Assembly (NCBI GenBank): GCA_041650755.1
Contig: JBAZKN010000001.1
Location: forward strand, 238,886 to 302,885
DNA length: 64,000 bases
Source: Patescibacteria group bacterium
GTDB lineage: Bacteria > Patescibacteriota > Patescibacteriia > UBA1558 > GWA2-36-10
Direction: 5' to 3'
Both the position numbers and the translations under genes were made by a program. The notes beneath the pieces were generated by a model. The model was given only the letters and a program-made list of their open reading frames with translations, did not search any database and was not told the origin of the DNA. Positions 12,119 through 40,783 of the stretch are shown in pieces. Numbering within the stretch: the first letter of the stretch is position 1; every line of letters starts with the position of its first letter.

Positions 12119-14299
12119 TTATTTTAATAAATCAAGAACGGCTGTTTGTTTATTTTTGGTGGCTAGCTCAATAAAATAATTAATCTTAGCTTGATCGTTT
12201 GCATCAAAATCAATCTTGCTTTCCTTTTGGTTAAAACTCTTGATCGCCTGCAAATTGCTGGCCATGCTAGATATATCGCCTGCTCGAAAGTCAACCAAAA
12301 ATTCATTCCAGTAAGGTTCTTTGGTCCAAGTCACCAGAGATTTTAGCTCAGCGGCTATTTTTTTGGCTGAATCAATATCTCCAAGCATCAGATAGGCATT
12401 GGTCATGTGTAGGTAAATATCTGGCCGAAGCGGTGCCCAAGCGTGAATGCGTTCCAAAATCGCGACATTTTTAGAACTCAATGATGGCACCACCTGGCTA
12501 ATTACAGAATAAAAATTTGATAAAAACATGTTGAGCCTAACATCGTTGGGATACTTATCAGCTAAAGAAGACAAATTATCGTTGACTAGATTAAAGTAAC
12601 TATCTTTGATTTGATTATTTAAATTCTGGTTGTTCACCACTTGAGCAAACATATCCGGCAAGAGTTGAACTTTTTCCTTGTCACCTAAAATGGTAGTATC
12701 CCATGATTCTTGCCAAAAATTTTTGGCCTGCTCGGCATCAGCGTCAGTATTGGCCGTCATAGCCTGTCGGACAGATCGATACAACAAGGTGTTGGCGTGA
12801 TATGGTTTATAAACAAAATTCCACACCATGAAAAACATCAGAGCTAAACATAAAATGCCAAAAAAATATTTTTTCACCTGGCTATCAGTCGCCTTTAGCC
12901 CCCAGTCTTTTATGGCTAGTTTCACTTTTTGGCGCCAGGACAAAACCTGCTCGGCTATCGTTGTCTGCTTACCGGCTGGCCGGGTCAATAAATAGGCTAA
13001 TATTAAATAAAAAATAACATTAGTATTGACGCTATCAAAGATAAAAAAGTCTTGGAATAAAAAGCTAATTAAAAATATTATCCAAAAATAAGAGGGTAGC
13101 CAGTGGTCTCCTTGACGATGTTTTTTGAACAAAATAGTAATCAAATAAACAAAAATACTCAAATACAAAAGGAAACCAAGAGCGCCGCCGTCTATCAGAT
13201 GCTGAACCAATATATTGTGCGGGCGATCAAACCAAGTTTCTGAGCTGGCATCATGAAAAATTTTGGTCGGAAAATATTTATTGAATACATAATGAAAATT
13301 TTCCAAACCCCAACCAAAAATAGGCTTGTCTCTAAATCCTGATAAGCTATTCTTCCAAATCAACAAACGCGATTGGGTGGTGATATCGTTGGTAATAGAA
13401 ATGCTGGCTAGCTTAGAAAACAATGGCACATCCTGCACCCAGGGCTTGTCTTTCTGGATAAAAATCAAGCTGACTGACAAAACGCTAGCCAAACTAACGA
13501 CTAAAATAAAATAATAAAACCAAGGGCGTCGCTTTTTGCTAAACCACAAATAAGAAATAGCCAGTAGCCAAGCAAATAATAACAAACCCAGGAAAGCACC
13601 GCGTGTCTGAGTCACGATTAAAACATAAGAGAACAAAAATATGCTGACAATATAAAATAAATTTATCCAGCGCTTAGTATAATTATTCATTAGATTACTA
13701 AACCAAAGCCAAGCAGCTACTACTATATGCAAAAACATATAAGAGCCTACGTAGGCGGCGTTACCCAAGGAAGCGGTCAAACGGCTACCGCCCGAAGATG
13801 GCTGGATAAAAGAAAGACCAAAGCTAAATTCTTGGGCAAGACCATAAAGAGCTACTAGCCAAGCGACCAGCAAAGAAGCTCCAAAAAATGTTCGCCAGTT
13901 TCTATCTGATTGTAAGACGCCCAATAAAATCACTACGTACATCAAGATATGATACCAGGTCACCAGGCCGTCCATGCGTTCAAAATTGCTCCAAAAACTA
14001 AAAGCCGGATTCGGCCCCAGGATACTGGAAATGCTCAGGGCCAATACAAATAACAACAAAATCGTCCAGGCAAAATTGGCCTTTGGCCGCCACTGATTGC
14101 TTCTGGCCAATAAAAATAAATACAGACAAAAAATAATCTCAATAATCAGCCGCCAATATAGATTGCGCGGCACAATGTAAGGGAAATAAAAACCATGGCC
14201 TATGACCAAGGGGGCGAACAAACTCAAAAATAAACCTATTTTTATGAACAAAAGCAAATACTCATCTAGATTGCGCGGCCAAGTAAAAAATTTACTCAT
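12119..14299 (-). CDS. O-antigen ligase / Wzy_C family membrane protein with C-terminal TPR region (paralog 1)
   Basis: ~10 TM N-terminal domain carrying the WaaL/PglL-type periplasmic motif RPHNILVQHLIDGGALG (H-N-x9-G-xx-G). The C-terminal ~300 aa are TPR-like. Confidence 0.7.
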   Translation of the reverse strand: MSKFFTWPRNLDEYLLLFIKIGLFLSLFAPLVIGHGFYFPYIVPRNLYWRLIIEIIFCLYLFLLARSNQWRPKANFAWTILLLFVLALSISSILGPNPAFSFWSNFERMDGLVTWYHILMYVVILLGVLQSDRNWRTFFGASLLVAWLVALYGLAQEFSFGLSFIQPSSGGSRLTASLGNAAYVGSYMFLHIVVAAWLWFSNLMNNYTKRWINLFYIVSIFLFSYVLIVTQTRGAFLGLLLFAWLLAISYLWFSKKRRPWFYYFILVVSLASVLSVSLIFIQKDKPWVQDVPLFSKLASISITNDITTQSRLLIWKNSLSGFRDKPIFGWGLENFHYVFNKYFPTKIFHDASSETWFDRPHNILVQHLIDGGALGFLLYLSIFVYLITILFKKHRQGDHWLPSYFWIIFLISFLFQDFFIFDSVNTNVIFYLILAYLLTRPAGKQTTIAEQVLSWRQKVKLAIKDWGLKATDSQVKKYFFGILCLALMFFMVWNFVYKPYHANTLLYRSVRQAMTANTDADAEQAKNFWQESWDTTILGDKEKVQLLPDMFAQVVNNQNLNNQIKDSYFNLVNDNLSSLADKYPNDVRLNMFLSNFYSVISQVVPSLSSKNVAILERIHAWAPLRPDIYLHMTNAYLMLGDIDSAKKIAAELKSLVTWTKEPYWNEFLVDFRAGDISSMASNLQAIKSFNQKESKIDFDANDQAKINYFIELATKNKQTAVLDLLK

Positions 14300-16475
14300 A
14301 TTTTTTATTTAAATATTCTTCCAATAATTTTATTTGATCAATCTGTCTATTTATTCTAGCTAAATCCAAGTAAGCTTGCAAGCGATCTCGGTCAGCAGCA
14401 GTAAAAGTATCCGGTCTTTTATTGGCTGGTAGCTGGGCATTAAAAGCAATGATTGCATCCAAACACTTCCTCATATTAGCCTCATTATTATCCTGAAAAT
14501 AAACCGCCAATAGATTCCACCAAGGTTCCTTGGCCCAAGGAAAAAATGCCAACATTTTTTGAGCTGCGGCTTCGGCATTACTTATGTCTTTATTGGCCAA
14601 ATAGGCATTGGTTTGCCTGACTAAAATATCTGGGCGCTGCGGCGCAAATAAATGCATTTTATTAAGCAACGCGATATCTTTTTGGATCAGCTCCGGATGG
14701 TCAAAATTGGCCAGATTATAAAAAGTTGATAAAAAAGTGGCTAACATAATATCCTGAGGGTATTTTTCTACTGCGGCTGTCAAATATTTATCAGTTACCT
14801 GAAAAACGGCCTCGCGAGTTTTTTCGCTCACCCTAGGCGTAGCTAATATCTCCCTATATAAATTTGACAAAACCTGAACCTTGTCTTTCTCCCCACTAGG
14901 ACTCAAAACAAAAGATTTTTGCCAAGTATGCAAAGCATCCAGAATATCACTTTCTTGATTGGCGCCAATTACATTTTGGATGGTTTTTAATAAAAGCTGG
15001 TTGCTCTTGGCTGGCAAAAAAACTGTTTGCCAAATTAAAACACCGGGCAATAATAGACAAAGTGGGACTAAGATTATTTTATTTATTTTAAAATCTCTTT
15101 CTAAGCCAGCAGGTCTAGTAGGAGATATTTTGAATAAAAAGGCTAGGATCAAATAAAAATATATATTGCTGTTTAAGTGATCAAAAGTAAATAAGTCGTG
15201 AAACAAGAAGCTTATTAAAAACGCTATCCAAAAAAAATAAAATAGCCAAGCTGCCTGGCTCTTATATTTTTTATATAAAATAATCCCTAAATAAACAAAA
15301 ATAGCCAAATAGAAGCCCAGAGCCAATACACCACCCTCTATCAAATATTGCAGCAAAACATTGTGCGGCCTATCCAGCCAAATCTCCGAACTGGCTTCCT
15401 GATAAATTCGCCGGGGAAAATACTTACTAAAAACTTCGGAAAAATTTTCCACGCCCCAGCCAAGAATCGGCTTGTCTCTAAAACCTAAAAGGCTGTTTTG
15501 CCAGACAAAGAGACGTGTCTGACCAGCTACATCCACTTTATTTGATTGGCTGACGGTAGTATCTAGATTCAAGGATATGAGAGATATTTTTCTCAACAAT
15601 TCATCATTGTTTACCCAAGCTGTATCTTTTTGCCACCATAACAAAGACAAAAATAAAAGCAAAGCAATTATCAAAGATGAAATCAAATAATAAAACCATT
15701 TTTTTTGCCGCCGCTCAAACCATAAATAAAAAACACCTAAAAGAATAAAAAATAAAACCAGACTAAAAAAATCTCCCCGCGTCTGAGTTTCAAGCAAAAT
15801 AAAAATAAACAAAAATAAACTGACCAAATAAAAAATATTATGCCAATAGCCGACTGCTTTATATTTCAAATTATTTAACAGCAAATAGGCCGCTATGACT
15901 ATCTGTAAAAAGAAAAATGATGCCAAAAAAGAAGCATTGCCAAAAGTGCCGGTCAAGCGCGGCCCACCATCAGAAGAAGCTATAAATGACCAATCGAGAT
16001 TGAGCCATTGCATCAAGGAATATATGGCCACCAGCCAGGCCGCCAACACAGAAATATTGAAATAGAGCAGCCAATCCTCTTTCTTTTTTAATGTGCCCAG
16101 CAAAACTACCACATAAAGCAAAATGTGGTACCAACTTACCAGGCCATCCATGCGGACAAAGCTGCTCCAAAAACTAAAACCAAAATTCGAACCAAGCAAA
16201 GAAGAAATAGTCAGACTCAATACTAGACCGAGCAACAAAACAAAACCCCAATTAAATTTTGGCCGCCAAGCCTTATTTTTAATAGCCAAAAACATATAAA
16301 CAGCAAATATCAGGTCCACTAGCAGCCGCCAATATAAATTACGCGGCACAATGTAGGGAAAATAGAAGTGATCACCAATGATCAAGGGTAAAAACAAAAT
16401 CAGAGCCAAACCTATTTTAATAAATAAAGCTAAATAATCGTCAAAATTTTTGGGCAAATTTAAAAAAAATTTCAT
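14292..16475 (-). CDS. O-antigen ligase / Wzy_C family membrane protein with C-terminal TPR region (paralog 2, tandem)
   Basis: N-terminus MKFFLNLPKNFDDYLALFIKIGL...FYFPYIVPRNLYWRL is nearly identical to paralog 1. Contains the RPHNVLLQYLIEGG motif. Overlaps paralog 1 by 8 nt. Confidence 0.7.
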   Translation of the reverse strand: MKFFLNLPKNFDDYLALFIKIGLALILFLPLIIGDHFYFPYIVPRNLYWRLLVDLIFAVYMFLAIKNKAWRPKFNWGFVLLLGLVLSLTISSLLGSNFGFSFWSSFVRMDGLVSWYHILLYVVVLLGTLKKKEDWLLYFNISVLAAWLVAIYSLMQWLNLDWSFIASSDGGPRLTGTFGNASFLASFFFLQIVIAAYLLLNNLKYKAVGYWHNIFYLVSLFLFIFILLETQTRGDFFSLVLFFILLGVFYLWFERRQKKWFYYLISSLIIALLLFLSLLWWQKDTAWVNNDELLRKISLISLNLDTTVSQSNKVDVAGQTRLFVWQNSLLGFRDKPILGWGVENFSEVFSKYFPRRIYQEASSEIWLDRPHNVLLQYLIEGGVLALGFYLAIFVYLGIILYKKYKSQAAWLFYFFWIAFLISFLFHDLFTFDHLNSNIYFYLILAFLFKISPTRPAGLERDFKINKIILVPLCLLLPGVLIWQTVFLPAKSNQLLLKTIQNVIGANQESDILDALHTWQKSFVLSPSGEKDKVQVLSNLYREILATPRVSEKTREAVFQVTDKYLTAAVEKYPQDIMLATFLSTFYNLANFDHPELIQKDIALLNKMHLFAPQRPDILVRQTNAYLANKDISNAEAAAQKMLAFFPWAKEPWWNLLAVYFQDNNEANMRKCLDAIIAFNAQLPANKRPDTFTAADRDRLQAYLDLARINRQIDQIKLLEEYLNKKYE

Positions 16476-16550: not shown

Positions 16551-17918
16551 ATGAAAAAATTCACCCTCTTGCTTGGCGACATCGCCTTATTGTACATCGG
16601 CTTACTACTAACTTTGTGGATCCGCTATGGACACGTCAATCAGGCCTTATGGGATCAACATTGGCGGCCCTTTTCTATTATCTTTGCCATTTGGCTAATA
16701 GTCTTTTTTATCAATGGTCTTTATGAGATACGCAAAGTCAGGAATGACTTTAAATTCTACAGTAGCTTATTACAAAACCTATTGATCAATGCTGCTATAG
16801 CCATTCTTTTCTTCTACCTGCGCTTAGGAGGTGTAGCTAGCCATATCCGACCGCAAACCATCTTGGTGATTTTGATCTGCGTTTTCGCTGTTTTATTTTT
16901 ATCCTGGCGAAGAATCTTTTACCAGCTAAGCGCCAGTCGTAGTTTTGGCAATAATCTAGCCATAGTGGGCGTCAATCCTGAGTCCCTGATGCTCGCCGAG
17001 GAAATTATCAATAAGCCACAGCTGGGCTATCAGCTAAAGCTCATCGTCAACCCCGATCATAGTCCGCTACCCGAAAAGTTTCAAATCACTCCAATTATTA
17101 AAGATATTTCTGATCTCAAAAACCAACTAATCAAACATAATATCAACACTGTTGTTTCTATCAACGACCCAAAATATGGGCCAGAAGTTGCCCGGTATTT
17201 GTTTGAAAGTATTGTCTTAAAAATCCAATACTATAATCTGGTAGATTTCTATGAAAAAATAACCGGTAAAATTCCGCTGGTGTCTTTGGAAAGAAATTGG
17301 TTTTTAGAAAATATAACCCAACAAAATAACCGCTGGTTTCCAATGGCCAAAAGATTGATAGATATTTTTTTCTCGTGTGTATTCGGCATCATCTCTCTCC
17401 CCTTTTTACTATTATTGATATTGTTTATCAAGCTAGAATCAGCCGGGCCGGCTATTTATAAACAGCAACGAGTGGGCCTTAATAATAAAATTTTTACTGT
17501 CTACAAATTGCGCTCTATGCGCAAAGATGCGGAAAATAATGGCGCTGTCTGGGCCAGCAAAAATGATGAGCGGATTACGCGCATGGGCAAATTTATGCGT
17601 CGCACCAGACTAGATGAGATACCGCAGTTTTGGAATATCTTGATGGGCAACATGAGTTTTGTCGGCCCACGACCAGAGCGTCCGGAATTTGTTGAACAAT
17701 TAAAAACTGCTATGCCTTTTTACAATGAAAGGCACTTAGTAAAACCGGGCCTGACTGGTTGGGCGCAAATCAACTACCCTTATGGTGCCAGCGTCGAAGA
17801 TGCTCGAGAAAAATTACAATACGATTTATTTTATATAAAAAATCAGTCAATTGTTCTGGATATTTCCATAATCCTCAAAACCATCAACACAATGTTTAAT
17901 ATTAGCTTTGGCCGCTAA
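16551..17918 (+). CDS. Polyprenyl glycosylphosphotransferase (WbaP/sugar transferase, Bac_transf domain), initiating enzyme
   Basis: 4-5 N-terminal TMs plus a C-terminal domain LIDIFFSCVFGIISLPFLLLL...KQQRVGLNNKIFTVYKLRSMRKDAE...DEIPQFWNILMGNMSFVGPRPERPEF. Confidence 0.85.
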   Translation: MKKFTLLLGDIALLYIGLLLTLWIRYGHVNQALWDQHWRPFSIIFAIWLIVFFINGLYEIRKVRNDFKFYSSLLQNLLINAAIAILFFYLRLGGVASHIRPQTILVILICVFAVLFLSWRRIFYQLSASRSFGNNLAIVGVNPESLMLAEEIINKPQLGYQLKLIVNPDHSPLPEKFQITPIIKDISDLKNQLIKHNINTVVSINDPKYGPEVARYLFESIVLKIQYYNLVDFYEKITGKIPLVSLERNWFLENITQQNNRWFPMAKRLIDIFFSCVFGIISLPFLLLLILFIKLESAGPAIYKQQRVGLNNKIFTVYKLRSMRKDAENNGAVWASKNDERITRMGKFMRRTRLDEIPQFWNILMGNMSFVGPRPERPEFVEQLKTAMPFYNERHLVKPGLTGWAQINYPYGASVEDAREKLQYDLFYIKNQSIVLDISIILKTINTMFNISFGR

Positions 17919-19168
17919 TGTGGGAAAAAATAAAAGCTAAAAGCTATAAATTTTTACGGTGGAGCGAAAAATACACCAAAACTGACATGGTCTATCTGGC
18001 CAGGGGTGGTTTTTGGTTATCCTTTGGTCAAGTAATATCTTCTGGCTCTACTTTTATTCTAGCCATTGCCTTTGCCAACCTCTTGCCCAAAGAAATCTAT
18101 GGCCAATATAAATACATCCTATCTATTGTGGCTATTCTGGGTATTGCCACATTAGGCGGCATGGATCTCTCGATCATGAAAGCAGTGGCCAATGGCCATG
18201 ATGGCACAGTCAGACCAGCTCTCAAAACCAAAGTGCGCTGGGCACTGCTTAGCGGCTTGGGCAGCCTAGCGGTAGCCGCTTATTATTATTTGCAGGGCAA
18301 CCACAATTTGTCTCTGGGCTTTTTGATTATCGCCTGCTTTTTGCCATTTATGGATCCTTTTTTTATCTACAATGCTGTCTTACAGGGCAAGAAAAATTTT
18401 CGTACTTCGTCTATCTACAATATGGTTGGCAAGATTATCAGCATTGCCATCATTATTCTGGTCATCTGGCTGTCAGATAACCTTTACTTACTATTACTCG
18501 CTTATTTTGCCAGCTGGACTTTCTTGAGGCTTTTTTATCTGCGCCAAACCTTAAAAAAATCTATCCAAAATAGCAGCGTTGATCCTGATGCTATTAATTA
18601 TGGTAAACATCTAAGTGTCATCAATATCATTGGTGTAGTGGCCACTTACATTGATCAATTGCTGATCTTTCACTTTTTAGGAGCTACTCGACTAGCTGTT
18701 TATGCTATGGCCATAGCTGCTCCCGAACAAATCAAGGGCGCAATAAAAAATCTAGGTACCTTGGCTTTTCCTAAATTTGCCACCAATGACCAAAATAGCA
18801 CCAAAAAAAATATACGCGGAAAAACTATAAAACTGGCTCTGGCTATTTTAGCCATCACCATTCTCTATATCATACTGGCTCCTTGGCTATTTAGTATATT
18901 TTTACCGCGCTATATGGAGTCTGTCTTATATTCACAAATATTTGCTATTTCTCTGCTGACCGGCCTGACCATTATACCGGCTACTTTTTTAGAATCGATT
19001 GGCGCCAAAAAATACTTATACATCTATAGTACCTGGTCATCAATAATACAAATTATTATGCTGATAATCTTAGTGCCTATGTTCGGCCTGATGGGCGCAG
19101 TGATTGCCAGGGTTCTATCCAGGTTTATCAATATGTTGCAAGCTTTTTGGTATATGAAAAAGGCCTAA
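17918..19168 (+). CDS. Wzx-like polysaccharide flippase (MOP superfamily)
   Basis: 416 aa with ~12 predicted TMs. Its start overlaps the previous gene's stop (TAATG). Confidence 0.65.
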   Translation: MWEKIKAKSYKFLRWSEKYTKTDMVYLARGGFWLSFGQVISSGSTFILAIAFANLLPKEIYGQYKYILSIVAILGIATLGGMDLSIMKAVANGHDGTVRPALKTKVRWALLSGLGSLAVAAYYYLQGNHNLSLGFLIIACFLPFMDPFFIYNAVLQGKKNFRTSSIYNMVGKIISIAIIILVIWLSDNLYLLLLAYFASWTFLRLFYLRQTLKKSIQNSSVDPDAINYGKHLSVINIIGVVATYIDQLLIFHFLGATRLAVYAMAIAAPEQIKGAIKNLGTLAFPKFATNDQNSTKKNIRGKTIKLALAILAITILYIILAPWLFSIFLPRYMESVLYSQIFAISLLTGLTIIPATFLESIGAKKYLYIYSTWSSIIQIIMLIILVPMFGLMGAVIARVLSRFINMLQAFWYMKKA

Positions 19169-21096: not shown

Positions 21097-21103
21097 AAAT
21101 CCT

Positions 21104-22057: not shown

Positions 22058-22094
22058 AATATTATTTTAAAAATTTATTAACTATTTTTTCAAG

Positions 22095-22907: not shown

Positions 22908-22910
22908 AGT

Positions 22911-24017: not shown

Positions 24018-24022
24018 ACTTT

Positions 24023-25399: not shown

Positions 25400-25404
25400 A
25401 AAAA

Positions 25405-27196: not shown

Positions 27197-27197
27197 A

Positions 27198-28382: not shown

Positions 28383-28402
28383 ATCGACAGACCAAATGCC
28401 AC

Positions 28403-29437: not shown

Positions 29438-29439
29438 CT

Positions 29440-30570: not shown

Positions 30571-30573
30571 ATA

Positions 30574-32013: not shown

Positions 32014-32015
32014 AA

Positions 32016-34617: not shown

Positions 34618-34631
34618 CTTTAGGATAACAA

Positions 34632-35351
34632 TTATTTTTTCTCAAACACGCAGACTAAGGCTTGACCCCAGTTTTTTAAAAAATCCAGCCGGCACAGCTT
34701 GTCATCAATGGTATGAATAAAGCGGTTACTAAACCAAAACCTGGGCAAACCTAAATAATGCAAGGGTGGCCAGAGAGTGGAAGCTCTGGATTTTTTCAGC
34801 TGCCAACCATTGGCTGACATGAACCCCAGCCATTGTTTGAGATTATAATCATATTGATGCTGATCAGGATCCCAGCCTTCCTTGATAACAGTGCGTGAAT
34901 GACGTCGCAAAATTTTACGACCAACAAATTTAAAAAAATTTTCCCATTTGTCGTGCATGGCCGGAAAAGTGATCAAAATACGGCCACCAGCCTTGGTCAG
35001 ACGATGCATTTCTTTTAAAACCAAATTGGGATGGATGACATGCTCAATAATATCGATGGCAATGCATTTATCAAATTGCTCGTCTAATGGTATAGACTCC
35101 ACGTCAGCCTGGACAGTCACAAAGTTTGCAATATTATTTTCTTTCATCAGGGCTCTGGCTGTAGCTAGCCTCTCTTCATTGATATCAACGCCGATCATTT
35201 TTTTAAATTTACCCTTATAAACTAGGGCTTGGACGCCATCGCCGCAACCAACATTTAAAACTGAATCTTCTTCTGTCAGGGGAAAAAATTTAGGATAAAT
35301 AATGCCGGAAATTAACTTACCTTTTTTAAATTTTATTGCCATTGACCCCAT
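34632..35351 (-). CDS. Class I SAM-dependent methyltransferase (first gene of the long minus-strand glycan operon)
   Basis: VLNVGCGDGVQAL is motif I; TKAGGRILITFP follows it. Confidence 0.75.
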   Translation of the reverse strand: MGSMAIKFKKGKLISGIIYPKFFPLTEEDSVLNVGCGDGVQALVYKGKFKKMIGVDINEERLATARALMKENNIANFVTVQADVESIPLDEQFDKCIAIDIIEHVIHPNLVLKEMHRLTKAGGRILITFPAMHDKWENFFKFVGRKILRRHSRTVIKEGWDPDQHQYDYNLKQWLGFMSANGWQLKKSRASTLWPPLHYLGLPRFWFSNRFIHTIDDKLCRLDFLKNWGQALVCVFEKK

Positions 35352-35414
35352 AAATTAATAATAAAAATTGGGAATTTTTTGGCCATAATTCTTGCCAAAA
35401 GATTAATAATGGGC

Positions 35415-35443
35415 TTGCATTAAGTCCATAAATTCTATAAAAT
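35415..35443 (+). promoter_or_regulatory. Putative promoter TTGCAT-N17-TAAAAT for the plus-strand GT4 gene
   Basis: TTGCAT at 35415-35420 and TAAAAT at 35438-35443. It overlaps the divergent minus-strand -10. Confidence 0.3.
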
Positions 35444-35470
35444 TATAACAGAAATGCTAAAAAAAATCAA
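35442..35470 (-). promoter_or_regulatory. Putative promoter of the 16-gene minus-strand glycan operon: -35 TTGATT, 17-nt spacer, extended -10 TGTTATAAT
   Basis: Minus-strand TGTTATAAT is the RC of plus attataaca at 35442-35450. It lies ~84 nt upstream of the ATG at 35351. Confidence 0.4.
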
Positions 35471-35500
35471 TAAATAATTTATCTAAAATTAGCCAAAAAT

Positions 35501-36697
35501 ATGCCCGAATTAGAAGCTCATAAACTACAAAATAAGAAGATCCTCTATCTGGTAACCCAAACCAAATGGGGTGGCGCACAAAAATATGTGCTCCAATTAG
35601 CCAAATATTTCAGCCAAAATAACCAGGTAACTATTGCTTTTGGCGAGGATGGCGGCCTTGACCCGCAATTTTTGGATGCCTGCCGGGCAATGAATATACG
35701 CACCATTACCCTCAAAAATCTGGTGCGCGAAATAAACATCCCCAAAGAAATGGCAGCCATCAAAGAATTGGCTAAAATATTAAACAAAGAAAACTACCAC
35801 CTGATTCATCTCAACAGTTCAAAAGCCGGCTTGATAGGCAGCTTGGCAGCCAAGCTGTATGCCAGCAATCCTTTTAATACCAAATTGCGCATTGTCTATA
35901 CCGCCCATGGTTTTGTATTTAATGAAAGGCTAAACCCTTGGATGAAAAAAATCTATGTCGCCTCAGAGACTTTCTCGGCCGGCCTGCAAAATCTGATCAT
36001 TGCCGTCTCTGAATATGACAAGCGGACTGCTCTAGCCAACAAAATTTGCCCGGCCTACAAAATCTTTGTGGTGCCCAACGGCATTGATCCGGCAGATTAT
36101 CATTTTTTGGATACCGACTCTGCCCGACAAGCGCTGCATTTGGCGCCAAATAAAAAATATTTCGGCACCATTGCCAGTTTTTATGCTAACAAAGGATACA
36201 CTTATCTGCTTGAGGCTATAAAAATCTTGCAAGACAAAAATTCTCCCCTGCTGAAAAATTGCTCTTGGGTTTTTATCGGCGATGGTCCAGAATTGGAAAA
36301 TATAAAAAAACAAATAGCCGCTGCCCATTTAGAAAATTTTATAACTATCATTGGAGCCAAAGACCAAGCCTGGCAATACTTATCAGCTTTTGATTATTTT
36401 ATCCTACCATCTATCAAAGAGGGTATGCCTTATACTATTTTGGAAGCCGGCTTGGCCAGAGTGCCGATTATAGCTAGTCGGGTGGGCGGCATACCGGAAA
36501 TTATTGATGACCAAAAAACCGGCTTGCTTACTTTGCCGGCCAATCCCCTGTCCTTAATTGAGGCCATGGAAAAAATAAGCGGCCATCCTTCTTTTGCCAA
36601 GCAACTGGCTCACCATAACTATCAAAATATTATCAGTCGCTTTTCTCTGAAAAAAACTTTGACCAGCACTGAAGACTTGTACCTAAAATTATTTTAG
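35501..36697 (+). CDS. Glycosyltransferase family 4
   Basis: GTIASFYANKGYTYLLEA...EAGLARVPIIASRVGGIPE. Confidence 0.75.
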   Translation: MPELEAHKLQNKKILYLVTQTKWGGAQKYVLQLAKYFSQNNQVTIAFGEDGGLDPQFLDACRAMNIRTITLKNLVREINIPKEMAAIKELAKILNKENYHLIHLNSSKAGLIGSLAAKLYASNPFNTKLRIVYTAHGFVFNERLNPWMKKIYVASETFSAGLQNLIIAVSEYDKRTALANKICPAYKIFVVPNGIDPADYHFLDTDSARQALHLAPNKKYFGTIASFYANKGYTYLLEAIKILQDKNSPLLKNCSWVFIGDGPELENIKKQIAAAHLENFITIIGAKDQAWQYLSAFDYFILPSIKEGMPYTILEAGLARVPIIASRVGGIPEIIDDQKTGLLTLPANPLSLIEAMEKISGHPSFAKQLAHHNYQNIISRFSLKKTLTSTEDLYLKLF

Positions 36698-36706: not shown

Positions 36707-38425
36707 TTATAAGTCTATTTTATAAACCCGAAAAACAGTCTGCTGTCTGGCATCTTTTATTTCTCTTACCAGACTAGCCGGCGGCAAACTATTCTCCCAT
36801 TGGTTTAAGCTTTGCAATAATTCCGGGGTCACTGTTGCCTGGATGGGCAATTTATCAGTCGGCGCAATATAATACACCTGCCTTACCCCCATTTCCTTTA
36901 GGACAGCGGGCTTATCTTTTATTTTTGATGCCTGATAAGCCTCAAAAGACACTACCGGCCAGGCTTGATATAGCATCCGCCGAGTCAAGGACCAGACAAT
37001 GCCCTCATTATTTATACGATCATTATAAACAAATAGCCAGGGCTCTGCTTGGCCAATCTGTTTGGCAAAACTTTGACTGATCAAATTATCAATATTGGCA
37101 TTGACGGCCGTCAGCTTTACCGCCGGACGCTTATCTTGCAATAAATTATCCAAATAGTTGTCCAGCTGGTTATAGCCATAATTGTAGGCTTGATACTTGA
37201 GCCGAGAATAGCTGACGCCCTCTTGGCCTATTTTTTGGTAGCTGATATTGGTATTATAGCTAAAAAATGCTTCCCACAAACAAAGCGCGATAATCAATGG
37301 ATAGCTGATATTTTTTGGCCAAGATTGGCAAAAATTTAATATAGCCAGAGCTAAAAGTAAAGATAGCCAAGGCATCAATAATGCTAAAAATCTAGCCGGA
37401 CTGCCGATAAAAATAAACAAAACAATTTGCCAACCAATAATCAAAATCAACCACCAGAAATTCTGGCTGGTCTTTTTTAGACCGTTCTTAATAATTTTAT
37501 AAAGCGCCCAAATAAAACTCAGTGAAAATAAATAAAACAAAGATGGCGACAAAGAATATTTTAAGCCAGACACCATAAATGGCAAGCTTTCCAGTTTGCT
37601 GGGAATTTCCGCTCGCCCGGGTCTAGCCTGCCAGGCAGCGACCGACTGCTTGAACATAAAAGATAATTGGAAATCAAAGTGGCTAAAATTGCGATATAGA
37701 AAAATATTATAAATAATATATGGCGAACAAATCAGCAAGGTGAGCGTCAGCCCCCAATATAATTGCCTCATCCTAAAAATATCGCGACGCCAAATTATTA
37801 AGTAAGTAAAAAATACCGGTAACAAAACTATGGTAGTCAACTTGGTCATCAGGGCCAACCCCAAAACTATGCCCCAAACATAAAAATACTTTTTATTTTC
37901 TACGGACTTCAAAAATAACCAAACGCCCAAAAGGATCAACAAGATCGAGAGCGATTCTTGCAAAGCCAAGCGCGATACCCAGACATGGAGATTGTTGACC
38001 GCCAATAAAATAGCCGCCAGCCAAGCGACCCGATTATTAAATAATCTTTTGGCTATCAGATAAAGCAAATAAATACTGACCAAGCCATACAGAGCCGGCC
38101 AAAATCTGACAGCTAGAAGGCTGACGTCGGTCATCTGCAGTTGCAGCCATTGCAAAAAAAAGCTAAAGCTGGGATGATCATGAAAAGACAGATAAGACCA
38201 CCACGGCCTAGTATTCAGCCACTCCAAGGGAGTAGTTTGATAAGGGGTGGCTAGCCAGTCAAAATATCCTATGCTCCGCAAAGCCAGGGAGGCCTCGTCA
38301 GTCAGAACGTCAGCTCTAGCCAAAGCAAAAAAACGCAAAAAAGCAGCCGCGGCCGCCACTAGCAAAAATAAATAAGTAAATCGATTTTTAAATTTAGCAG
38401 TAAAATTTAAAAAGATATTTGGCAT
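36707..38425 (-). CDS. GT39 / ArnT-like (PMT family) membrane glycosyltransferase
   Basis: 572 aa with 10 or more TMs. N-terminal region ADVLTDEASLALRSIGYF is typical of dolichyl/undecaprenyl-phosphate-sugar:protein or lipid transferases (GT-C). Confidence 0.7.
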   Translation of the reverse strand: MPNIFLNFTAKFKNRFTYLFLLVAAAAAFLRFFALARADVLTDEASLALRSIGYFDWLATPYQTTPLEWLNTRPWWSYLSFHDHPSFSFFLQWLQLQMTDVSLLAVRFWPALYGLVSIYLLYLIAKRLFNNRVAWLAAILLAVNNLHVWVSRLALQESLSILLILLGVWLFLKSVENKKYFYVWGIVLGLALMTKLTTIVLLPVFFTYLIIWRRDIFRMRQLYWGLTLTLLICSPYIIYNIFLYRNFSHFDFQLSFMFKQSVAAWQARPGRAEIPSKLESLPFMVSGLKYSLSPSLFYLFSLSFIWALYKIIKNGLKKTSQNFWWLILIIGWQIVLFIFIGSPARFLALLMPWLSLLLALAILNFCQSWPKNISYPLIIALCLWEAFFSYNTNISYQKIGQEGVSYSRLKYQAYNYGYNQLDNYLDNLLQDKRPAVKLTAVNANIDNLISQSFAKQIGQAEPWLFVYNDRINNEGIVWSLTRRMLYQAWPVVSFEAYQASKIKDKPAVLKEMGVRQVYYIAPTDKLPIQATVTPELLQSLNQWENSLPPASLVREIKDARQQTVFRVYKIDL

Positions 38426-38449: not shown

Positions 38450-40783
38450 TTAGTCAAGAGGAAAATTGTCCTTGCTGACCGTTTGTTTGACGTATTGGTT
38501 AGTCCTGACTTTTTCAATAAATTTCACAGCCTCCGTTTCATAATTGCCGCCAAATTTTTTGATTTGCCCGGCAATAGCAATTGCTTTATCTTTTTCGCCA
38601 ATATTGGCATAAGACAAAGCCAAACTGATCCAGTATTCCGGATTATCCTGATAGTTTTGAGTCAGCAAAGAATAAAAGTTGACTGCCCAGGAAAAATTAT
38701 CAGCATAGACAGCTGAATTGGCCAGACGATTCAATGTTTTCTCCTTTTTATAATCAATCCCCAAAGCATCCATTTGATCAATATAGCTCTGGATTTTTTC
38801 CGGCATATCCCCCGGCAAAAGTGCCATAACCATATTAACATAAGATTCGTCTGTGTATGGATTTAGATCAATGGCTTTTTGAAAATTAGCCAGCAGCTTA
38901 TCCTGATAAATTTTGGCTTCGCCAATTTTCCCCTGCTCTTTCATCCATAAATATAGGTAAAGCTCGCCATAGCCCATTTCATAATAAAACTGCTGCCTGG
39001 TAGGGCTATATTTTATGGCTTCCTGACCGAGCTTATCTACTTCGTACAAACGATTAACGTCCAAAATATAGGTATAATTATAATGCCTCATAGCCAACAA
39101 ATAATTGGCTGCATCAAATGGGTCGGCTTGCTGGCGCTGTTTAAGCAGAGCATCTATCTTTTCCGTGTATTGCATGGCTACGTAGGGCGTAACTTTTTTA
39201 TTTATCAATAAATGATTAGAAAATTCTACCAGCTGACGCAAAAATTCATTACTACCGGAACTATGGTAATTCATGGCCTTAATAAAAGTCTGAAAAGATT
39301 TGTCAGTATCCACCGCCTCAAGGCGCAAAGCTTGGATAAAAGTAAGGTTGGCCTTGGTCTCGCGCCAGTTCACAAAATACATAATTGGAACAAAGGCCAA
39401 TAAATAAACGATAAAAGAAATTAGAACAATTTTATTATTGCGATAAGCCCGGCGCGGCTCAATATATTTCTGGGCCACCATGGCTAATAATAGTAGGAGC
39501 GGCAAATAAGTCACCAATGCTTCAAACACAACTAGGCCTTGTATAACAAAGGCTAGCGCCATCAAAAATAAAATTTGCTGGCTAAGCACGGCTTGCCAGG
39601 GCTCGCCCTTATCAAGCTGCAGCACTTTGCGGCCCAAAATATACAAAGGGCCAAGGATCAAAAATAAATACAATATAAAGCCCACCAAGCCGCCAGTCAC
39701 CAAGTGATCCAAAAATATATTGTGCGCCCGATCAAACCAGATGATCGCTCCGGCATGAGCAAAAATATTCGGATTATAATATTTATTAAAAACTCTATAA
39801 AAATTTTCCGCTCCCCAGCCAAAAATTGGTTTTTCTTTAAAGCCTTGCCAAGCCGATCCCCAAGCCATAAAACGAGTTTGCATGGTGCGCTCACCTAGGG
39901 ATATACTTGTCAAACGTGTCAGAGCAGTGCTATTTTGCACCCAAGGCTGACCTTTGTTTATATAAGCAAAAGACAAAAACCCCACAAAGATAAGGCCTAA
40001 AATTAGCAAACTATACTTAATTTTTTTCTGCGGCAAACGTAATAGATTGTAGACTATAAATACTAAAATACTAACCAGCAAAGCAATCAAAGCTCCCCTG
40101 GTGCCAGATTGAAAAATAATAAATATATCCAAAAGAATCCCCAAAATATAATAAATGCTCAAATAACGCGATTTTCTTTGCAGGGCCAAATAGGCGCCGG
40201 CAAAAACAGCAAACAGTAAATAACCGGCCGTATAGGCGGCATTGCCTATAGTTGAGGCTACCCTGTCATTGGAAATCAAAGATGATTTGTTTATCAGATC
40301 TATACCCAAATACTGCAAAAAGCCAAAAACAGCAACCACTTGCGCTGCCAAGAAAAAAATATCCCACAATACAGACCACTCTTTTTTGCTGTTTATAAAA
40401 TTGCGCAAAACCAAAAACCAGATAAATAAATGCAGCCAGAGCAAAAGCCCCTCGCTCCTCTCGGTATTGCTCCAAAAGCTAAAATAAAAATTTCCCCCAA
40501 TAAGAGAAGAAACAAACAGGCTGACAAGAAACAAGGCAAAGACAATGCTTAGCCAGTCAACTTTTAGCAGGCTGTCTTTGCGCAAATACCATCTCGCTAG
40601 CCATAAAAGCAATAAAAGTTCCGTCAGTATGCGAAAAACTATAGCTTTGCTGGAAATAAAGGGAAACAATAAATCACTGTTGACATAAGTAGGCACCAAC
40701 ATTATTAAACCCAAAACTACCCAAATAGCGCCGTCTATAAATTTTAGTTTTGACATTCTGTTATTATTTAAAACTTGGATCAA
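38450..40783 (-). CDS. O-antigen ligase / Wzy_C family membrane protein with C-terminal TPR region (paralog 3)
   Basis: SGTRGALIALLVSILV...RAHNIFLDHLVTGGLVGF (H-N-x9-G-xx-G), followed by a TPR-rich C-terminal half. Confidence 0.7.
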   Translation of the reverse strand: MIQVLNNNRMSKLKFIDGAIWVVLGLIMLVPTYVNSDLLFPFISSKAIVFRILTELLLLLWLARWYLRKDSLLKVDWLSIVFALFLVSLFVSSLIGGNFYFSFWSNTERSEGLLLWLHLFIWFLVLRNFINSKKEWSVLWDIFFLAAQVVAVFGFLQYLGIDLINKSSLISNDRVASTIGNAAYTAGYLLFAVFAGAYLALQRKSRYLSIYYILGILLDIFIIFQSGTRGALIALLVSILVFIVYNLLRLPQKKIKYSLLILGLIFVGFLSFAYINKGQPWVQNSTALTRLTSISLGERTMQTRFMAWGSAWQGFKEKPIFGWGAENFYRVFNKYYNPNIFAHAGAIIWFDRAHNIFLDHLVTGGLVGFILYLFLILGPLYILGRKVLQLDKGEPWQAVLSQQILFLMALAFVIQGLVVFEALVTYLPLLLLLAMVAQKYIEPRRAYRNNKIVLISFIVYLLAFVPIMYFVNWRETKANLTFIQALRLEAVDTDKSFQTFIKAMNYHSSGSNEFLRQLVEFSNHLLINKKVTPYVAMQYTEKIDALLKQRQQADPFDAANYLLAMRHYNYTYILDVNRLYEVDKLGQEAIKYSPTRQQFYYEMGYGELYLYLWMKEQGKIGEAKIYQDKLLANFQKAIDLNPYTDESYVNMVMALLPGDMPEKIQSYIDQMDALGIDYKKEKTLNRLANSAVYADNFSWAVNFYSLLTQNYQDNPEYWISLALSYANIGEKDKAIAIAGQIKKFGGNYETEAVKFIEKVRTNQYVKQTVSKDNFPLD

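What the first reader, a model, noticed from the sequence alone, without database searches (positions are those of the whole stretch)
12119..40783. Three paralogous Wzy_C/O-antigen-ligase-like proteins fused to TPR domains: candidate protein O-oligosaccharyltransferases
Three ~730-780 aa paralogs (two in tandem at 12119-16475, a third at 38450-40783) combine a 10-12 TM Wzy_C domain with a ~300-aa TPR region. Each carries the WaaL/PglL signature H-N-x9-G-xx-G in the periplasmic loop. PglL and PilO O-oligosaccharyltransferases that glycosylate pilins and other surface proteins belong to this family. Here the genes flank a large glycan-assembly operon, a GT39/PMT-like transferase, a type IV pilin cluster and a 1254-aa Ser/Thr-rich surface protein. 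A TPR domain is a plausible protein-substrate recognition module. The locus may therefore be a general protein O-glycosylation system for pili and S-layer rather than an LPS O-antigen system; nothing in the window argues for an outer membrane.
Basis: partly seen in the sequence, partly recalled or inferred. Interest (0 to 1): 0.7.

Follow-up and report, generated by a model that had tools for sequence, protein, structure and literature searches.

The report
WaaL-like glycan transferases with TPR domains
A tiny-genome Patescibacteria (CPR) bacterium carries three "O-antigen ligase"-type membrane enzymes, each fused to an outward-facing TPR domain; one sits in a conserved gene module beside a giant secreted surface protein, so they probably attach finished sugar chains to surface proteins, a job known from Gram-positive S-layers.

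Summary
Three minus-strand genes (12119-14299, 14292-16475, 38450-40756) encode 726, 727 and 768 aa proteins. Each has a Wzy_C domain, a WaaL fold, the WaaL/PglL Arg-Arg-His residues, 13 TM helices and an extracytoplasmic C-terminal TPR-type domain.

Corrections:
- C starts at the ATG at 40756, not the TTG at 40783.
- There are 13 TM helices, not 10-12.
- The A and B C-terminal domains are about 230 aa and degenerate.
- B misses the last Gly of the motif.

The host is a Patescibacteria MAG. The family is large (about 1,900 clusters at E<=1e-30), and the 80 best genome loci are all Patescibacteria.

New evidence:
- The order [quoted passage not shown] recurs in at least 7 other loci, with C-type orthologs down to 36% identity.
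- Homologs sit beside either PGT/Wzx or Wzm/Wzt exporters. That is ligase-like, not polymerase-like.

The closest precedent is the predicted S-layer O-oligosaccharyltransferases WsfB and WsaA/WsaB.

Verdict: the protein O-glycosylation reading is partly supported. It is plausible for C. It is open for A and B, where the pilin link is weak. A cell-wall glycopolymer ligase is the main rival. This is a new member of a known kind, of moderate interest.

The parts
12119..14299 (-). Paralog A (726 aa): WaaL-fold Wzy_C transferase with 13 TM helices. The outer catalytic loop is aa 285-367 (nt 13199-13447). The TPR-like C-terminal domain is aa 500-726 (nt 12122-12802).
14292..16475 (-). Paralog B (727 aa): tandem, faster-evolving copy of the A type. 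Its stop overlaps A's start by 8 nt (ATGAGTAA). The C-terminal domain is aa 491-727 (nt 14295-15005).
   Evidence: Pfam Wzy_C E 3e-20. 44% identical to A overall, 31% in the C-terminal domain. Deviates at near-invariant positions E107V, Y187F, F357L, G375A, E542D, R588M. Overlap read.
38450..40756 (-). Paralog C (768 aa from the ATG at 40756): WaaL-fold Wzy_C transferase with a TPR superhelix of about 300 aa (aa 466-768, nt 38453-39361).
   Evidence: Pfam Wzy_C E 2e-19. AF2 pLDDT 90.5. Foldseek WaaL E 2e-5 and OGT TPR E 5e-5. Identical to P0121.
40764..41444 (-). 226-aa protein with one N-terminal TM anchor and an outward-facing TPR domain. Its stop lies 7 nt before C's start. Candidate partner of C, analogous to WsaA.
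   Evidence: Pfam TPR_11, TPR_2 and TPR_1 at E about 5e-6, just below cutoff. Sequence. A gene in the equivalent position (same strand, similar size) is present in L001-L004, L007, L089 and L090. Homology was confirmed by sequence for L001-L004 and L050 and not detected for L007 at E<=1e-5. L008 carries a 222-aa TPR gene in a different order.
41495..41525 (-). 14-bp GC-rich hairpin in the 135-nt spacer after the surface-protein gene, followed by a promoter-like site (41495-41467). Likely a transcript boundary or attenuator.
   Evidence: A GC hairpin of different sequence lies at the same place in all six other loci folded: L001, L003, L004, L007, L089 and L090.
41580..45344 (-). 1254-aa secreted protein rich in Thr and Ser. 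It has a Sec signal peptide, three N-terminal repeats of about 60 aa, and Ser/Thr/Pro-rich linkers at aa 216-245 and 523-545. Candidate S-layer-like acceptor glycoprotein.
   Evidence: No Pfam or PDB match. Family of 214 hits of conserved length, all 'hypothetical', named ones in Patescibacteria. 45% identical over 1108 aa to the L004 neighbour.
16551..19168 (+). Initiating polyprenyl-phosphate glycosylphosphotransferase (16551-17918) and Wzx-type flippase (17918-19168), transcribed divergently from B and A.
   Evidence: Pfam Bac_transf E 3e-69 and Polysacc_synt E 3e-15. NCBIfam EPS_sugtrans E 1e-113. The same divergent pairing occurs in 22 of 61 species loci.
19173..36697 (.). Glycan assembly and tailoring genes: UDP-GlcNAc 2-epimerase, an NAD epimerase/dehydratase, 7 Glycos_transf_1 (GT4-type) genes, 3 SAM methyltransferases, 3 B12-binding radical SAM enzymes and one 285-aa ORF with no family.
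   Evidence: Pfam.
36707..38425 (-). 572-aa PMT_2/GT-C membrane glycosyltransferase (ArnT/PMT-like) directly downstream of C.
   Evidence: Pfam PMT_2 E 5e-25 and PMT E 1e-12. Also in the clusters of L004 and L007, but absent next to C in L001 and L003.
45749..47634 (-). ECF sigma factor (47083-47634) and a DUF5667 protein (45749-47077; a putative anti-sigma partner, inferred only from its position next to the sigma factor), upstream of the surface-protein gene.
   Evidence: Pfam. Conserved upstream in L001, L002 and L007, and the DUF5667 gene in L089. In L003 the equivalent 476-aa gene has no Pfam hit but is a tblastn homolog. Absent in L004.
632..11969 (-). Context: pilin-like proteins (632-5507), PilC (5514-6728), PilB (6733-8418), a CheA-like kinase (8857-10422) and an MCP (10827-11969), downstream of A.
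   Evidence: Pfam. The same order follows A-type orthologs only in L005, L006 and L009.

Best explanation
The three genes encode WaaL-fold (GT-C_B type) transferases that act on undecaprenyl-pyrophosphate-linked glycans at the outer face of the cytoplasmic membrane. Each carries an extra 13th TM helix that places a TPR-type helical-repeat domain outside, next to the catalytic loop.

Proposed pathway (inferred from the gene content):
1. The PGT at 16551 primes the lipid carrier.
2. The seven GT4-type enzymes, the methyltransferases and the B12-radical-SAM enzymes build and decorate an oligosaccharide on the cytoplasmic side.
3. The Wzx-type flippase at 17918 exports it.
4. The Wzy_C-TPR enzymes transfer it en bloc from the lipid carrier to an acceptor. 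The conserved Arg233, Arg311 and His361 (A numbering) handle the pyrophosphate donor.

For paralog C the acceptor is most probably the 1254-aa secreted Thr/Ser-rich protein encoded two genes upstream. The TPR superhelix of C and the co-translated 226-aa membrane-anchored TPR protein would hold the acceptor. This would make C an S-layer-type O-oligosaccharyltransferase like WsfB or WsaA/WsaB.

A is a ligase-type enzyme of the same pathway whose acceptor is undetermined: another surface protein or pilin, or a cell-wall or lipid anchor. B is a diverged tandem copy of A.

Shown: fold, topology parity, conserved residues and gene linkage. Inferred: donor, acceptor and the role of the TPR domain.
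For: Fold and active site:
- Pfam Wzy_C hits in all three.
- A family profile hits C. metallidurans WaaL 7TPG at E 5.7e-12. It aligns TQTRG, SRLxIW and DRxHN onto WaaL R191, R265 and H313.
- These residues are invariant in 40 and 43 homologs.

Topology:
- 13 TM helices. The outer loop at aa 285-367 is followed by three helices, a K/R-rich loop (7 of 35 residues) and TM13, which puts the C-terminal domain outside.
- PglS, a proven O-OTase, likewise has 13 TM helices plus a C-terminal periplasmic domain (PMC12800693).

The TPR nature of the C-terminal domain is shown. The best structural matches include OGT, SPY and peptide-binding TPR domains.

Linkage for C:
- The order 'about 1200-1290-aa secreted protein, about 225-263-aa TPR protein, Wzy_C-TPR' occurs in L001/L002, L003, L004, L007, L050, L089 and L090, with a variant in L008.
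- It persists at 36% Wzy_C identity with different flanks (L004).
- The surface proteins are homologous (45% over 1108 aa), and so are the small TPR proteins.
- The TPR gene and C are 3-7 nt apart.

Ligase rather than polymerase:
- Homologs pair divergently with PGT/Wzx in 22 of 61 loci.
- They sit near Wzm/Wzt ABC exporters in 9 further loci. Four of these are directly divergent and the others lie 2-6 kb upstream. Three pairs were confirmed by Pfam.

Precedent:
- WsfB is Wzy_C plus a C-terminal TPR, and WsaB is preceded by the 168-aa TPR protein WsaA (PMC2943079).
- O-OTase genes are often adjacent to their targets (PMC3643930).

Host is Patescibacteria.
Against: - No biochemical or glycoproteomic data exist for any member.
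- PglL-specific Pfam models (PglL_A PF15864, Wzy_C_2 PF11846) are not hit, and no NCBIfam model fits.
- Direct similarity to WsfB or WsaB could not be tested because no sequence was at hand. Those two are themselves called 'predicted' or 'putative' in the review cited.
- Adjacency to the surface-protein gene is equally expected if the enzymes build the wall glycopolymer that anchors that protein, as proposed for B. anthracis WpaA/WpaB (PMC6030368).
- TPR domains also serve polysaccharide export scaffolds. NCBIfam gives weak PgaA and PrsT TPR hits.
- 28 of the 61 species loci with enough upstream sequence show no recognised partner gene, at tblastn E<=1e-5 with this window's proteins and after the Wzm/Wzt search.
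- Much of the synteny comes from related lineages.
Confidence: 0.5

Rival explanations
1. These are cell-envelope glycopolymer ligases. They transfer the finished Und-PP-glycan to a non-protein acceptor: a glycolipid anchor (as proposed for pneumococcal TacL, from my own knowledge) or a wall-linkage unit (as proposed for B. anthracis WpaA/WpaB). The 1254-aa protein would then bind that polymer non-covalently through its N-terminal repeats. Gene adjacency would reflect anchoring, not glycosylation.
For: - The enzymes have a WaaL-like fold and residues.
- They pair with both Wzx and Wzm/Wzt export routes, as WaaL-type ligases do.
- WpaA/WpaB belong to the same Pfam clan, and their depletion disturbs S-layer assembly (PMC6030368).
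- The surface protein has three N-terminal repeats of about 60 aa that could be wall-binding modules.
- The cluster has a UDP-GlcNAc 2-epimerase (ManNAc supply), which is typical of wall polymers.
Against: - The one Wzy_C plus TPR protein named in the literature searched, WsfB, is assigned to protein glycosylation (PMC2943079).
- The best structural matches of the C-terminal domains include peptide- and protein-binding TPR domains.
- The tight coupling of C to a second outward-facing TPR protein, and the conserved position two genes after one particular secreted protein, is more specific than expected for a general wall polymer.
- No LCP (LytR-CpsA-Psr) ligase gene was seen in the window.
Confidence: 0.27
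2. One or more paralogs, most plausibly A or B next to the Wzx flippase, are Wzy-type repeat-unit polymerases. The TPR-like domain would hold the growing chain or set its length, since no Wzz is present. Only C would be the terminal ligase.
For: - The cluster is Wzx-dependent and has no other Wzy candidate and no Wzz/PCP gene among the ORFs scanned.
- Two to three Wzy_C paralogs per locus recur in other genomes: L005, L008, L089 and L090. That would fit a polymerase-plus-ligase split.
- The A/B and C C-terminal domains are not detectably similar.
Against: - A, B and C all keep the same WaaL-type Arg-Arg-His set.
- Family members are paired with Wzm/Wzt ABC-transporter pathways, which need no Wzy polymerase.
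- With 7 GTs plus a PGT, a non-polymerised oligosaccharide is sufficient.
- L006 and L009 have a single A-type gene beside PGT/Wzx.
Confidence: 0.13
3. The TPR domains are scaffolds for secretion of a free exopolysaccharide, as in PgaA, BcsC, AlgK or PelB. The enzymes would release or hand over polymer rather than attach it.
For: Weak NCBIfam similarity of the C-terminal parts to the TPR regions of PgaA (E 3.5e-5) and PrsT (E 7e-4). BcsC appears among the profile hits.
Against: - Those hits lie far below the family cutoffs and reflect generic TPR similarity.
- The known scaffolds work with outer-membrane porins, which a Patescibacteria cell is not expected to have.
- A WaaL-type active site implies transfer to an acceptor.
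Confidence: 0.05

Closest known systems
WsfB (Paenibacillus alvei) and WsaA/WsaB (Geobacillus stearothermophilus): predicted S-layer O-oligosaccharyl:protein transferases
   Same: - A Wzy_C membrane enzyme with a C-terminal TPR region (WsfB), or with a small separate TPR protein encoded just upstream (WsaA, 168 aa, before WsaB).
- A monoderm host.
- Located with a lipid-linked glycan cluster that starts with a Bac_transf-type initiating enzyme.
- The S-layer gene is transcribed separately (PMC2943079).

Here C has both the fused TPR and the upstream 226-aa TPR protein. The surface-protein gene is followed by a conserved hairpin.
   Different: - Sequence relatedness to WsfB or WsaB was not tested.
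- Those systems export by Wzm/Wzt. This window uses a Wzx-type flippase, although other family members do use Wzm/Wzt.
- The putative acceptor here is an uncharacterised Patescibacteria-specific protein of about 1250 aa, not a known S-layer protein.
- There are three paralogs instead of one.
WaaL O-antigen ligase (C. metallidurans 7TPG/7TPJ; E. coli WaaL)
   Same: - A profile hit at E 5.7e-12.
- The R191, R265 and H313 equivalents are invariant.
- Family members are indifferent to the export route (Wzx or ABC).
   Different: - An extra 13th TM helix and a 230-300-aa outer TPR domain.
- About 15-19% identity.
- The host is not expected to make lipid A-core.
PglL, PglS, TfpO/PilO protein O-oligosaccharyltransferases of Gram-negative bacteria
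   Same: - Wzy_C core with the same Arg-Arg-His residues (PMC3643930).
- PglS is modelled with 13 TM helices plus a C-terminal periplasmic domain forming a cleft (PMC12800693).
- The gene is often adjacent to its target.
   Different: - No hit to PglL_A (PF15864) or Wzy_C_2 (PF11846).
- The C-terminal domain here is a TPR array.
- Adjacency to pilin genes is not conserved beyond close relatives.
OGT/SPY and eukaryotic TMTC1-4 (glycosyltransferases that use TPR arrays to select protein substrates; from my own knowledge)
   Same: A TPR superhelix is fused to a glycosyltransferase. OGT and SPY TPR domains are among the best structural matches of the C-terminal domains. TMTCs are also GT-C membrane enzymes with lumenal TPRs.
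   Different: These have unrelated catalytic domains, donors or both. The resemblance is one of design, not of descent.
WpaA/WpaB (Bacillus anthracis) and TacL (Streptococcus pneumoniae): WaaL/Wzy-clan enzymes of monoderm wall polymers
   Same: The same Pfam clan, a monoderm host, and a link to S-layer assembly (PMC6030368).
   Different: They are assigned to a different Pfam family (PF13425). No TPR fusion is reported in the text read. Their activity is also unproven.

Membership tests
Wzy_C / O-antigen ligase superfamily (PF04932; WaaL fold) | Pfam PF04932 hit above the gathering score | tested here: met
   81.9, 72.8 and 70.1 bits against a cutoff of 31.7.
Wzy_C / O-antigen ligase superfamily (PF04932; WaaL fold) | WaaL-type multi-helix fold | tested here: met
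   [not shown]
Wzy_C / O-antigen ligase superfamily (PF04932; WaaL fold) | Conserved Arg, Arg and His of the outer-face active site (E. coli R215, R288, H338) | tested here: met
   R233, R311 and H361 (A numbering) are invariant in 40 sequences and present in A, B and C. They align to WaaL R191, R265 and H313. The E. coli and PglL equivalences come from PMC3643930.
Wzy_C / O-antigen ligase superfamily (PF04932; WaaL fold) | Motif H[NSQ]x9Gxx[GTY] | tested here: met
   Met in A and C. B ends in Ala.
WaaL proper (LPS O-antigen ligase) | A lipid A-core acceptor, meaning an LPS pathway and an outer membrane in the host | not testable with these tools
   No Lpx, Lpt or Bam gene among the window ORFs scanned. 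The whole genome was not available. The host is Patescibacteria, generally regarded as lacking LPS (my own knowledge).
WaaL proper (LPS O-antigen ligase) | 12 TM helices and no large C-terminal outer domain | tested here: not met
   13 TM helices plus a C-terminal domain of 227-304 aa.
PglL/PglS-type O-oligosaccharyltransferase | Hit to PglL_A (PF15864) or Wzy_C_2 (PF11846) | tested here: not met
   No such hit at E<=0.01 in A, B or C. PF11846 is precomputed for only 2 of 120 C-type homologs.
PglL/PglS-type O-oligosaccharyltransferase | 13th TM helix and a C-terminal periplasmic domain | tested here: met
   The PglS description is in PMC12800693. The fold of the PglS domain was not compared.
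PglL/PglS-type O-oligosaccharyltransferase | Demonstrated transfer of Und-PP-glycan to Ser or Thr of a protein | not testable with these tools
   Needs experiment.
WsfB / WsaA-WsaB S-layer O-OTase type | Wzy_C enzyme with a C-terminal TPR region and/or a small TPR protein encoded directly upstream | tested here: met
   Fused TPR domain. The 226-aa TPR gene ends 7 nt before C. Conserved in at least 7 other loci.
WsfB / WsaA-WsaB S-layer O-OTase type | Genomic association with a surface-layer protein gene and its glycan cluster | tested here: met
   Met for C. That the 1254-aa protein forms an S-layer is an inference.
WsfB / WsaA-WsaB S-layer O-OTase type | Sequence relatedness to WsfB or WsaB closer than to other Wzy_C proteins | not tested
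The afdb50 library was unavailable.
Wzy repeat-unit polymerase | Occurs only with Wzx-dependent pathways, usually with a Wzz co-polymerase | tested here: not met
   Homologs are also paired with Wzm/Wzt. No Wzz/PCP was found in the window.
TPR repeat domain | Pfam TPR model above the gathering score in the protein itself | tested here: not met
   Only sub-threshold hits in A and C, and none in B.
TPR repeat domain | Helix-turn-helix repeat superhelix recognised at profile or fold level | tested here: met
   [not shown]

The most novel reading that the evidence does not exclude
Patescibacteria possess a dedicated, widely conserved surface-glycoprotein biogenesis module. In it, TPR-bearing WaaL-fold enzymes act as acceptor-specific protein O-oligosaccharyltransferases. 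One paralog (C) would be hard-wired, together with a membrane-anchored TPR partner, to a lineage-specific structural surface protein of about 1250 aa. Others (A and B) would serve further acceptors. The outer TPR array would select the protein substrate, a solution convergent with OGT and TMTC. This would explain what 'O-antigen ligases' do in a phylum without LPS.
Probability: 0.3. Interest if true: 0.65.

Novelty: new member of a known kind. Interest (0 to 1): 0.5.

Why it matters
Patescibacteria (CPR) are a large share of bacterial diversity. They live attached to other cells and have very small genomes, yet this one spends more than 6.5 kb on three paralogs of an enzyme class named after an LPS function that the phylum is not thought to have.

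Public annotation calls them only 'O-antigen ligase family protein'. One recent paper even refers to an 'outer membrane lipopolysaccharide' of Patescibacteriota (PMC12911398). The literature therefore does not say what the acceptor of these glycans is.

The conserved module found here gives a concrete, testable hypothesis for how the CPR cell surface is built and decorated. The module is: secreted protein of about 1250 aa, hairpin, anchored TPR protein, Wzy_C-TPR enzyme, glycan cluster. The cell surface is the interface for host attachment and phage recognition.

If the TPR domains set acceptor specificity, the family would also be a source of new O-OTases for glycoconjugate engineering.

If the reading is wrong, the locus is simply a wall-polymer cluster and is ordinary.

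Tried and rejected
- A single-sequence search of A against PDB sequences gave nothing. Only a family profile of the TM domain reached WaaL.
- NCBIfam gave no family for A, B or C beyond weak generic TPR similarity.
- The afdb50 fold library was unavailable. Relatives outside Patescibacteria, including WsfB, could therefore not be compared.
- AF2 model coordinates are not exposed to scripts. The distance and orientation of the TPR groove relative to His361 could not be measured.
- The idea that A and B are pilin-specific O-OTases of the PilO/TfpO kind was considered and downgraded. Pilus and chemosensory genes follow the A-type gene only in L005, L006 and L009. One further locus (L065) has pilB about 6 kb downstream. 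The PGT/Wzx or Wzm/Wzt pairing is much more widespread.
- A mirror-tree or co-evolution test of the C TPR domain against the surface protein was considered and dropped. With only about 8 pairs, shared phylogeny would dominate.
- Rfam and tRNA scans of the window found nothing.
- Full-text searches pairing 'O-antigen ligase' or 'O-antigen' with Patescibacteria, Candidate Phyla Radiation, Parcubacteria or Saccharibacteria, plus one for Patescibacteria + S-layer + glycosylation + pili, found no description of these proteins.
- My running note of '8 GT4' was a miscount. The window has 7 Glycos_transf_1 genes.

Full report
**1. What is there**

The window is low-GC (about 0.40) and almost entirely coded on the minus strand. 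The three ORFs of the finding exist.

| Paralog | Coordinates | Length | Pfam Wzy_C (PF04932) E-value |
|---|---|---|---|
| A | 12119-14299 | 726 aa | 5e-23 |
| B | 14292-16475 | 727 aa | 3e-20 |
| C | 38450-40783 as the maximal ORF | 768 aa from the ATG | 2e-19 |

All three Pfam scores are far above the gathering score.

C almost certainly starts at the ATG at 40756. That is 7 nt after the stop of the upstream gene, and it matches the deposited 768-aa protein exactly. B's last codons overlap A's start by 8 nt (ATGAGTAA), so B and A are translationally coupled.

A is 100% identical to a GenBank protein named 'MAG: O-antigen ligase family protein [Patescibacteria group bacterium]' on a 405-kb contig. 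The organism is therefore a CPR bacterium.

**2. Anatomy of the proteins**

- **Topology.** Hydropathy gives 13 TM helices with the N-terminus inside. The large loop at aa 285-367 is outside. It is followed by three helices, a K/R-rich inner loop (7 of 35 residues) and a 13th helix that carries the C-terminal domain outside.
- **Models.** AF2 models are confident and show the same helix order. A has pLDDT 91.5 and pTM 0.90. C has pLDDT 90.5 and pTM 0.87.
- **Active site.** A profile of the TM domain hits WaaL at E 5.7e-12. It aligns TQTRG, SRLxIW and DRxHN with WaaL R191, R265 and H313. These residues are invariant in alignments of 40 and 43 homologs and are present in all three paralogs. They correspond to E. 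coli WaaL R215, R288, H338 and N. meningitidis PglL R224, R298, H349, as listed in PMC3643930.
- **Motif.** H-N-x9-G-xx-G is exact in A and C. B ends in Ala.
- **C-terminal domain.** It is all-helical: 227 aa in A, 237 aa in B and 304 aa in C. No Pfam TPR model reaches threshold in any of the three proteins. The family profile, however, hits consensus TPR and OGT TPR arrays at E 1e-72 to 1e-40. The models match HOP, PP5, PEX5, MamA, OGT and SPY TPR domains.

**3. Relationship of the paralogs**

| Pair | TM domain identity | C-terminal domain |
|---|---|---|
| A-B | 49.5% | 31% identical |
| A-C | 31.6% | not detectably similar |
| B-C | 33.4% | not detectably similar |

(All.)

Among the 44 closest relatives of A from other genomes, every one is nearer to A than to B. 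B also departs from near-invariant positions: E107V, Y187F, F357L, G375A, E542D and R588M. B therefore looks like a faster-evolving tandem duplicate.

C has its own orthologous group in Komeilibacteria, Parcubacteria, Portnoybacteria, Doudnabacteria and others.

**4. Size and range of the family**

An exhaustive phmmer search with A finds 1,937 cluster representatives at E<=1e-30 and 4,822 at E<=1e-10. Most of the best 150 are 700-850 aa long, which is full architecture.

A scan of one genome per GTDB species gave at least 556 confirmed relatives. The best 80 are all Patescibacteria MAGs.

**5. Context in the window**

Pfam and NCBIfam scans give the following map.

| Coordinates | Content |
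|---|---|
| 632-8418 | Pilin-like proteins, PilC, PilB |
| 8857-11969 | CheA-like kinase and MCP |
| 12119-16475 | A and B |
| 16551-17918 (+) | Bac_transf initiating phosphotransferase, divergent from B and A |
| 17918-19168 (+) | Polysacc_synt flippase |
| 19173-36697 | UDP-GlcNAc 2-epimerase, an NAD epimerase, seven Glycos_transf_1 genes, three methyltransferases, three B12-binding radical SAM enzymes |
| 36707-38425 | PMT_2 GT-C protein |
| 38450-40756 | C |
| 40764-41444 | 226-aa protein with one TM anchor and an outer TPR domain |
| 41580-45344 | 1254-aa protein |
| 45749-47634 | DUF5667 protein and ECF sigma factor |
| beyond about 48 kb | Housekeeping genes, then (from about 53 kb) map, adk, secY and ribosomal protein genes |

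The 1254-aa protein has a Sec signal peptide, 24.8% Ser+Thr, two Ser/Thr/Pro-rich linkers, and no Pfam or PDB match.

No Wzz, separate Wzy, LCP ligase or LPS/outer-membrane gene was seen among the ORFs scanned.

**6. Conserved linkage: the key new evidence**

(a) *The C module.* Around C-type orthologs the order is the same: a secreted protein of about 1200-1290 aa, then a TPR protein of about 225-263 aa, then the Wzy_C-TPR gene, then GT4 genes.

- Loci with this order: L001/L002 (55% identity), L003 (51%), L089 (40%), L090, L007, L050 and L004 (Doudnabacteria, 36%). L008 has three Wzy_C genes beside the big protein.
- In L004 the upstream flank is different (NusB, an LTD protein, HU), yet the three-gene module persists.
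- The big proteins are homologous: 45% over 1108 aa, and 214 hits of conserved length, all 'hypothetical'. The small TPR proteins are homologous too.
- The TPR gene and the Wzy_C gene are 3-7 nt apart.
- A strong GC hairpin of varying sequence follows the big gene in the window and in all six other loci folded. This suggests a separately terminated, probably highly expressed structural gene.

(b) *The A/B position.*

- Close A-type orthologs (L005, L006, L009) share the order 'PGT and Wzx, divergent from Wzy_C, then MCP-CheW-CheA-PilB-PilC-pilins'.
- Among the 80 species loci from the scan, 61 have enough upstream sequence. Of these, 22 have PGT and/or Wzx divergently upstream.
- 9 others have a Wzm/Wzt ABC exporter within about 7 kb upstream. 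In four of them (L021, L026, L029, L063) it is directly divergent. In the others it lies 2-6 kb away. Three pairs (L021, L026, L070) were confirmed by Pfam, including the Wzt_C domain.
- Pilus genes are not conserved neighbours beyond the close clade.

**7. Mechanistic reading**

The fold, the conserved residues and the outer-face loop indicate an enzyme that takes an Und-PP-linked glycan as donor.

The family pairs with both export routes. That is how WaaL-type ligases behave, and it is not expected of Wzy polymerases, because ABC-transporter pathways finish the chain in the cytoplasm. This argues for a terminal transfer step.

The extra TM13 and outer C-terminal domain resemble the proven O-OTase PglS, modelled with 13 TM helices and a C-terminal periplasmic domain forming a cleft (PMC12800693).

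The architecture 'Wzy_C plus C-terminal TPR', and the variant 'small TPR protein encoded just upstream of the Wzy_C gene', have both been described before. They are the predicted S-layer O-OTases WsfB of P. alvei and WsaA/WsaB of G. stearothermophilus (PMC2943079). C combines both features and sits beside a conserved secreted protein. O-OTase genes are frequently next to their targets (PMC3643930).

My best explanation is therefore as follows. C, helped by the 226-aa TPR protein, transfers the cluster's glycan to the 1254-aa surface protein. A is a ligase-type enzyme of the same pathway with an undetermined acceptor. B is a diverged copy. I put this at about 0.5 overall. It is close to certain for 'WaaL-fold transferase with outer TPR domain', about even for 'C is a protein O-OTase', and lower for all three.

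**8. Rivals**

- **Wall or lipid glycopolymer ligase (0.27).** WpaA/WpaB of B. anthracis belong to the same clan and affect S-layer assembly (PMC6030368). Adjacency to the surface-protein gene would then reflect anchoring through its N-terminal repeats.
- **Polymerase for A or B (0.13).** This fits the absence of another Wzy and the recurrence of 2-3 paralogs per locus. It is weakened by the Wzm/Wzt pairing and the identical catalytic set.
- **Exopolysaccharide export scaffold (0.05).** It rests only on generic TPR similarity.

**9. Comparison and membership**

The proteins are members of the Wzy_C/WaaL superfamily: the Pfam hit, fold, residues and motif are all met.

They are not classical WaaL, because of the extra TM helix, the TPR domain and the host. 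They are not members of the PglL subfamily as defined by PglL_A or Wzy_C_2, which are not hit.

By architecture and context they work most like WsfB and WsaA/WsaB. Sequence membership in that group was not tested.

**10. Novelty and interest**

The genes are already deposited and generically annotated. The fusion type and the idea of a TPR-assisted S-layer O-OTase are published.

Three things are new:
- The scale of the family in Patescibacteria.
- The conserved surface-protein, TPR and Wzy_C module.
- The ligase-type pairing with both export routes.

No paper in the searchable library describes these. One recent paper speaks of Patescibacteriota 'outer membrane lipopolysaccharide', which shows that the acceptor question is open.

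I rate this a new member of a known kind, with interest 0.5. It is a good, testable lead for CPR surface biology, not a surprise for glycobiologists.

Noticed in passing
window 24023-25399, 30574-32013, 32016-33461: Three B12-binding radical SAM enzymes sit inside the glycan cluster, next to three SAM methyltransferases. An adjacent pair of them is conserved in L001, L002 and L003. This is unusual tailoring chemistry for a surface glycan, possibly C-methylation.
   Followed up: partly
46 of loci L010-L088 (e.g. L021 13125-15545), plus L091 (12421-14787): secA lies about 0.3-6 kb downstream, on the same strand, of the Wzy_C-TPR gene in 46 of the 80 Patescibacteria species loci, often with murB between them. 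This could be plain synteny or a link between secretion and glycan transfer.
   Followed up: partly
L019, L021, L022, L026, L029, L055, L063, L070, L085: In these genomes the Wzy_C-TPR gene lies near a Wzm/Wzt ABC exporter (ABC2_membrane, and ABC_tran plus Wzt_C) instead of PGT/Wzx. The exporter is directly divergent in four loci and 2-6 kb upstream in the rest. The family therefore serves both export routes.
   Followed up: yes
window 41495-41525; same position in L001, L003, L004, L007, L089, L090: A strong GC-rich hairpin of 11-17 bp, with a different sequence in each genome, follows the gene for the secreted protein of about 1250 aa. In the window a promoter-like site follows it, before the TPR gene. 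It looks like a conserved transcript boundary.
   Followed up: partly
window 41580-45344: The 1254-aa secreted protein belongs to a Patescibacteria family of conserved length (about 1170-1290 aa). The family has 214 hits, all annotated 'hypothetical', and no Pfam or PDB match. It has three N-terminal repeats of about 60 aa and only 2 Cys. It is a candidate major surface or S-layer protein.
   Followed up: partly
window 14292-16475: Paralog B has substitutions at positions that are at least 88% conserved across the family (E107V, Y187F, F357L, G375A, E542D, R588M). It also has a 10-residue insertion in the outer loop. No other genome in the hit list has a closer B-type ortholog.
   Followed up: yes
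L008 3018-10463; L089 7001-11705; L090 4760-9079; L005 10001-13961: Other Patescibacteria carry two or three Wzy_C genes in a row, some without a full TPR domain (622-692 aa), beside the surface-protein gene or the PGT/Wzx pair. Paralog multiplicity is recurrent.
   Followed up: partly
window 632-5507: The pilin-like proteins with N-terminal methylation motifs are very large. One is 1029 aa with DUF2341 and another is 426 aa with a Laminin_G_3 (ConA-like lectin) domain, next to a 170-aa pilin.
   Followed up: no
window 20239-21096: A 285-aa ORF inside the glycan cluster has no TM segment and no Pfam or NCBIfam match.
   Followed up: no
L001 12400-12969 and L002 9438-10007: A Y1 (IS200-like) transposase gene sits directly after the C-type gene, where the window has the PMT_2 GT-C gene. 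The PMT_2 gene is therefore a variable part of the module.
   Followed up: no
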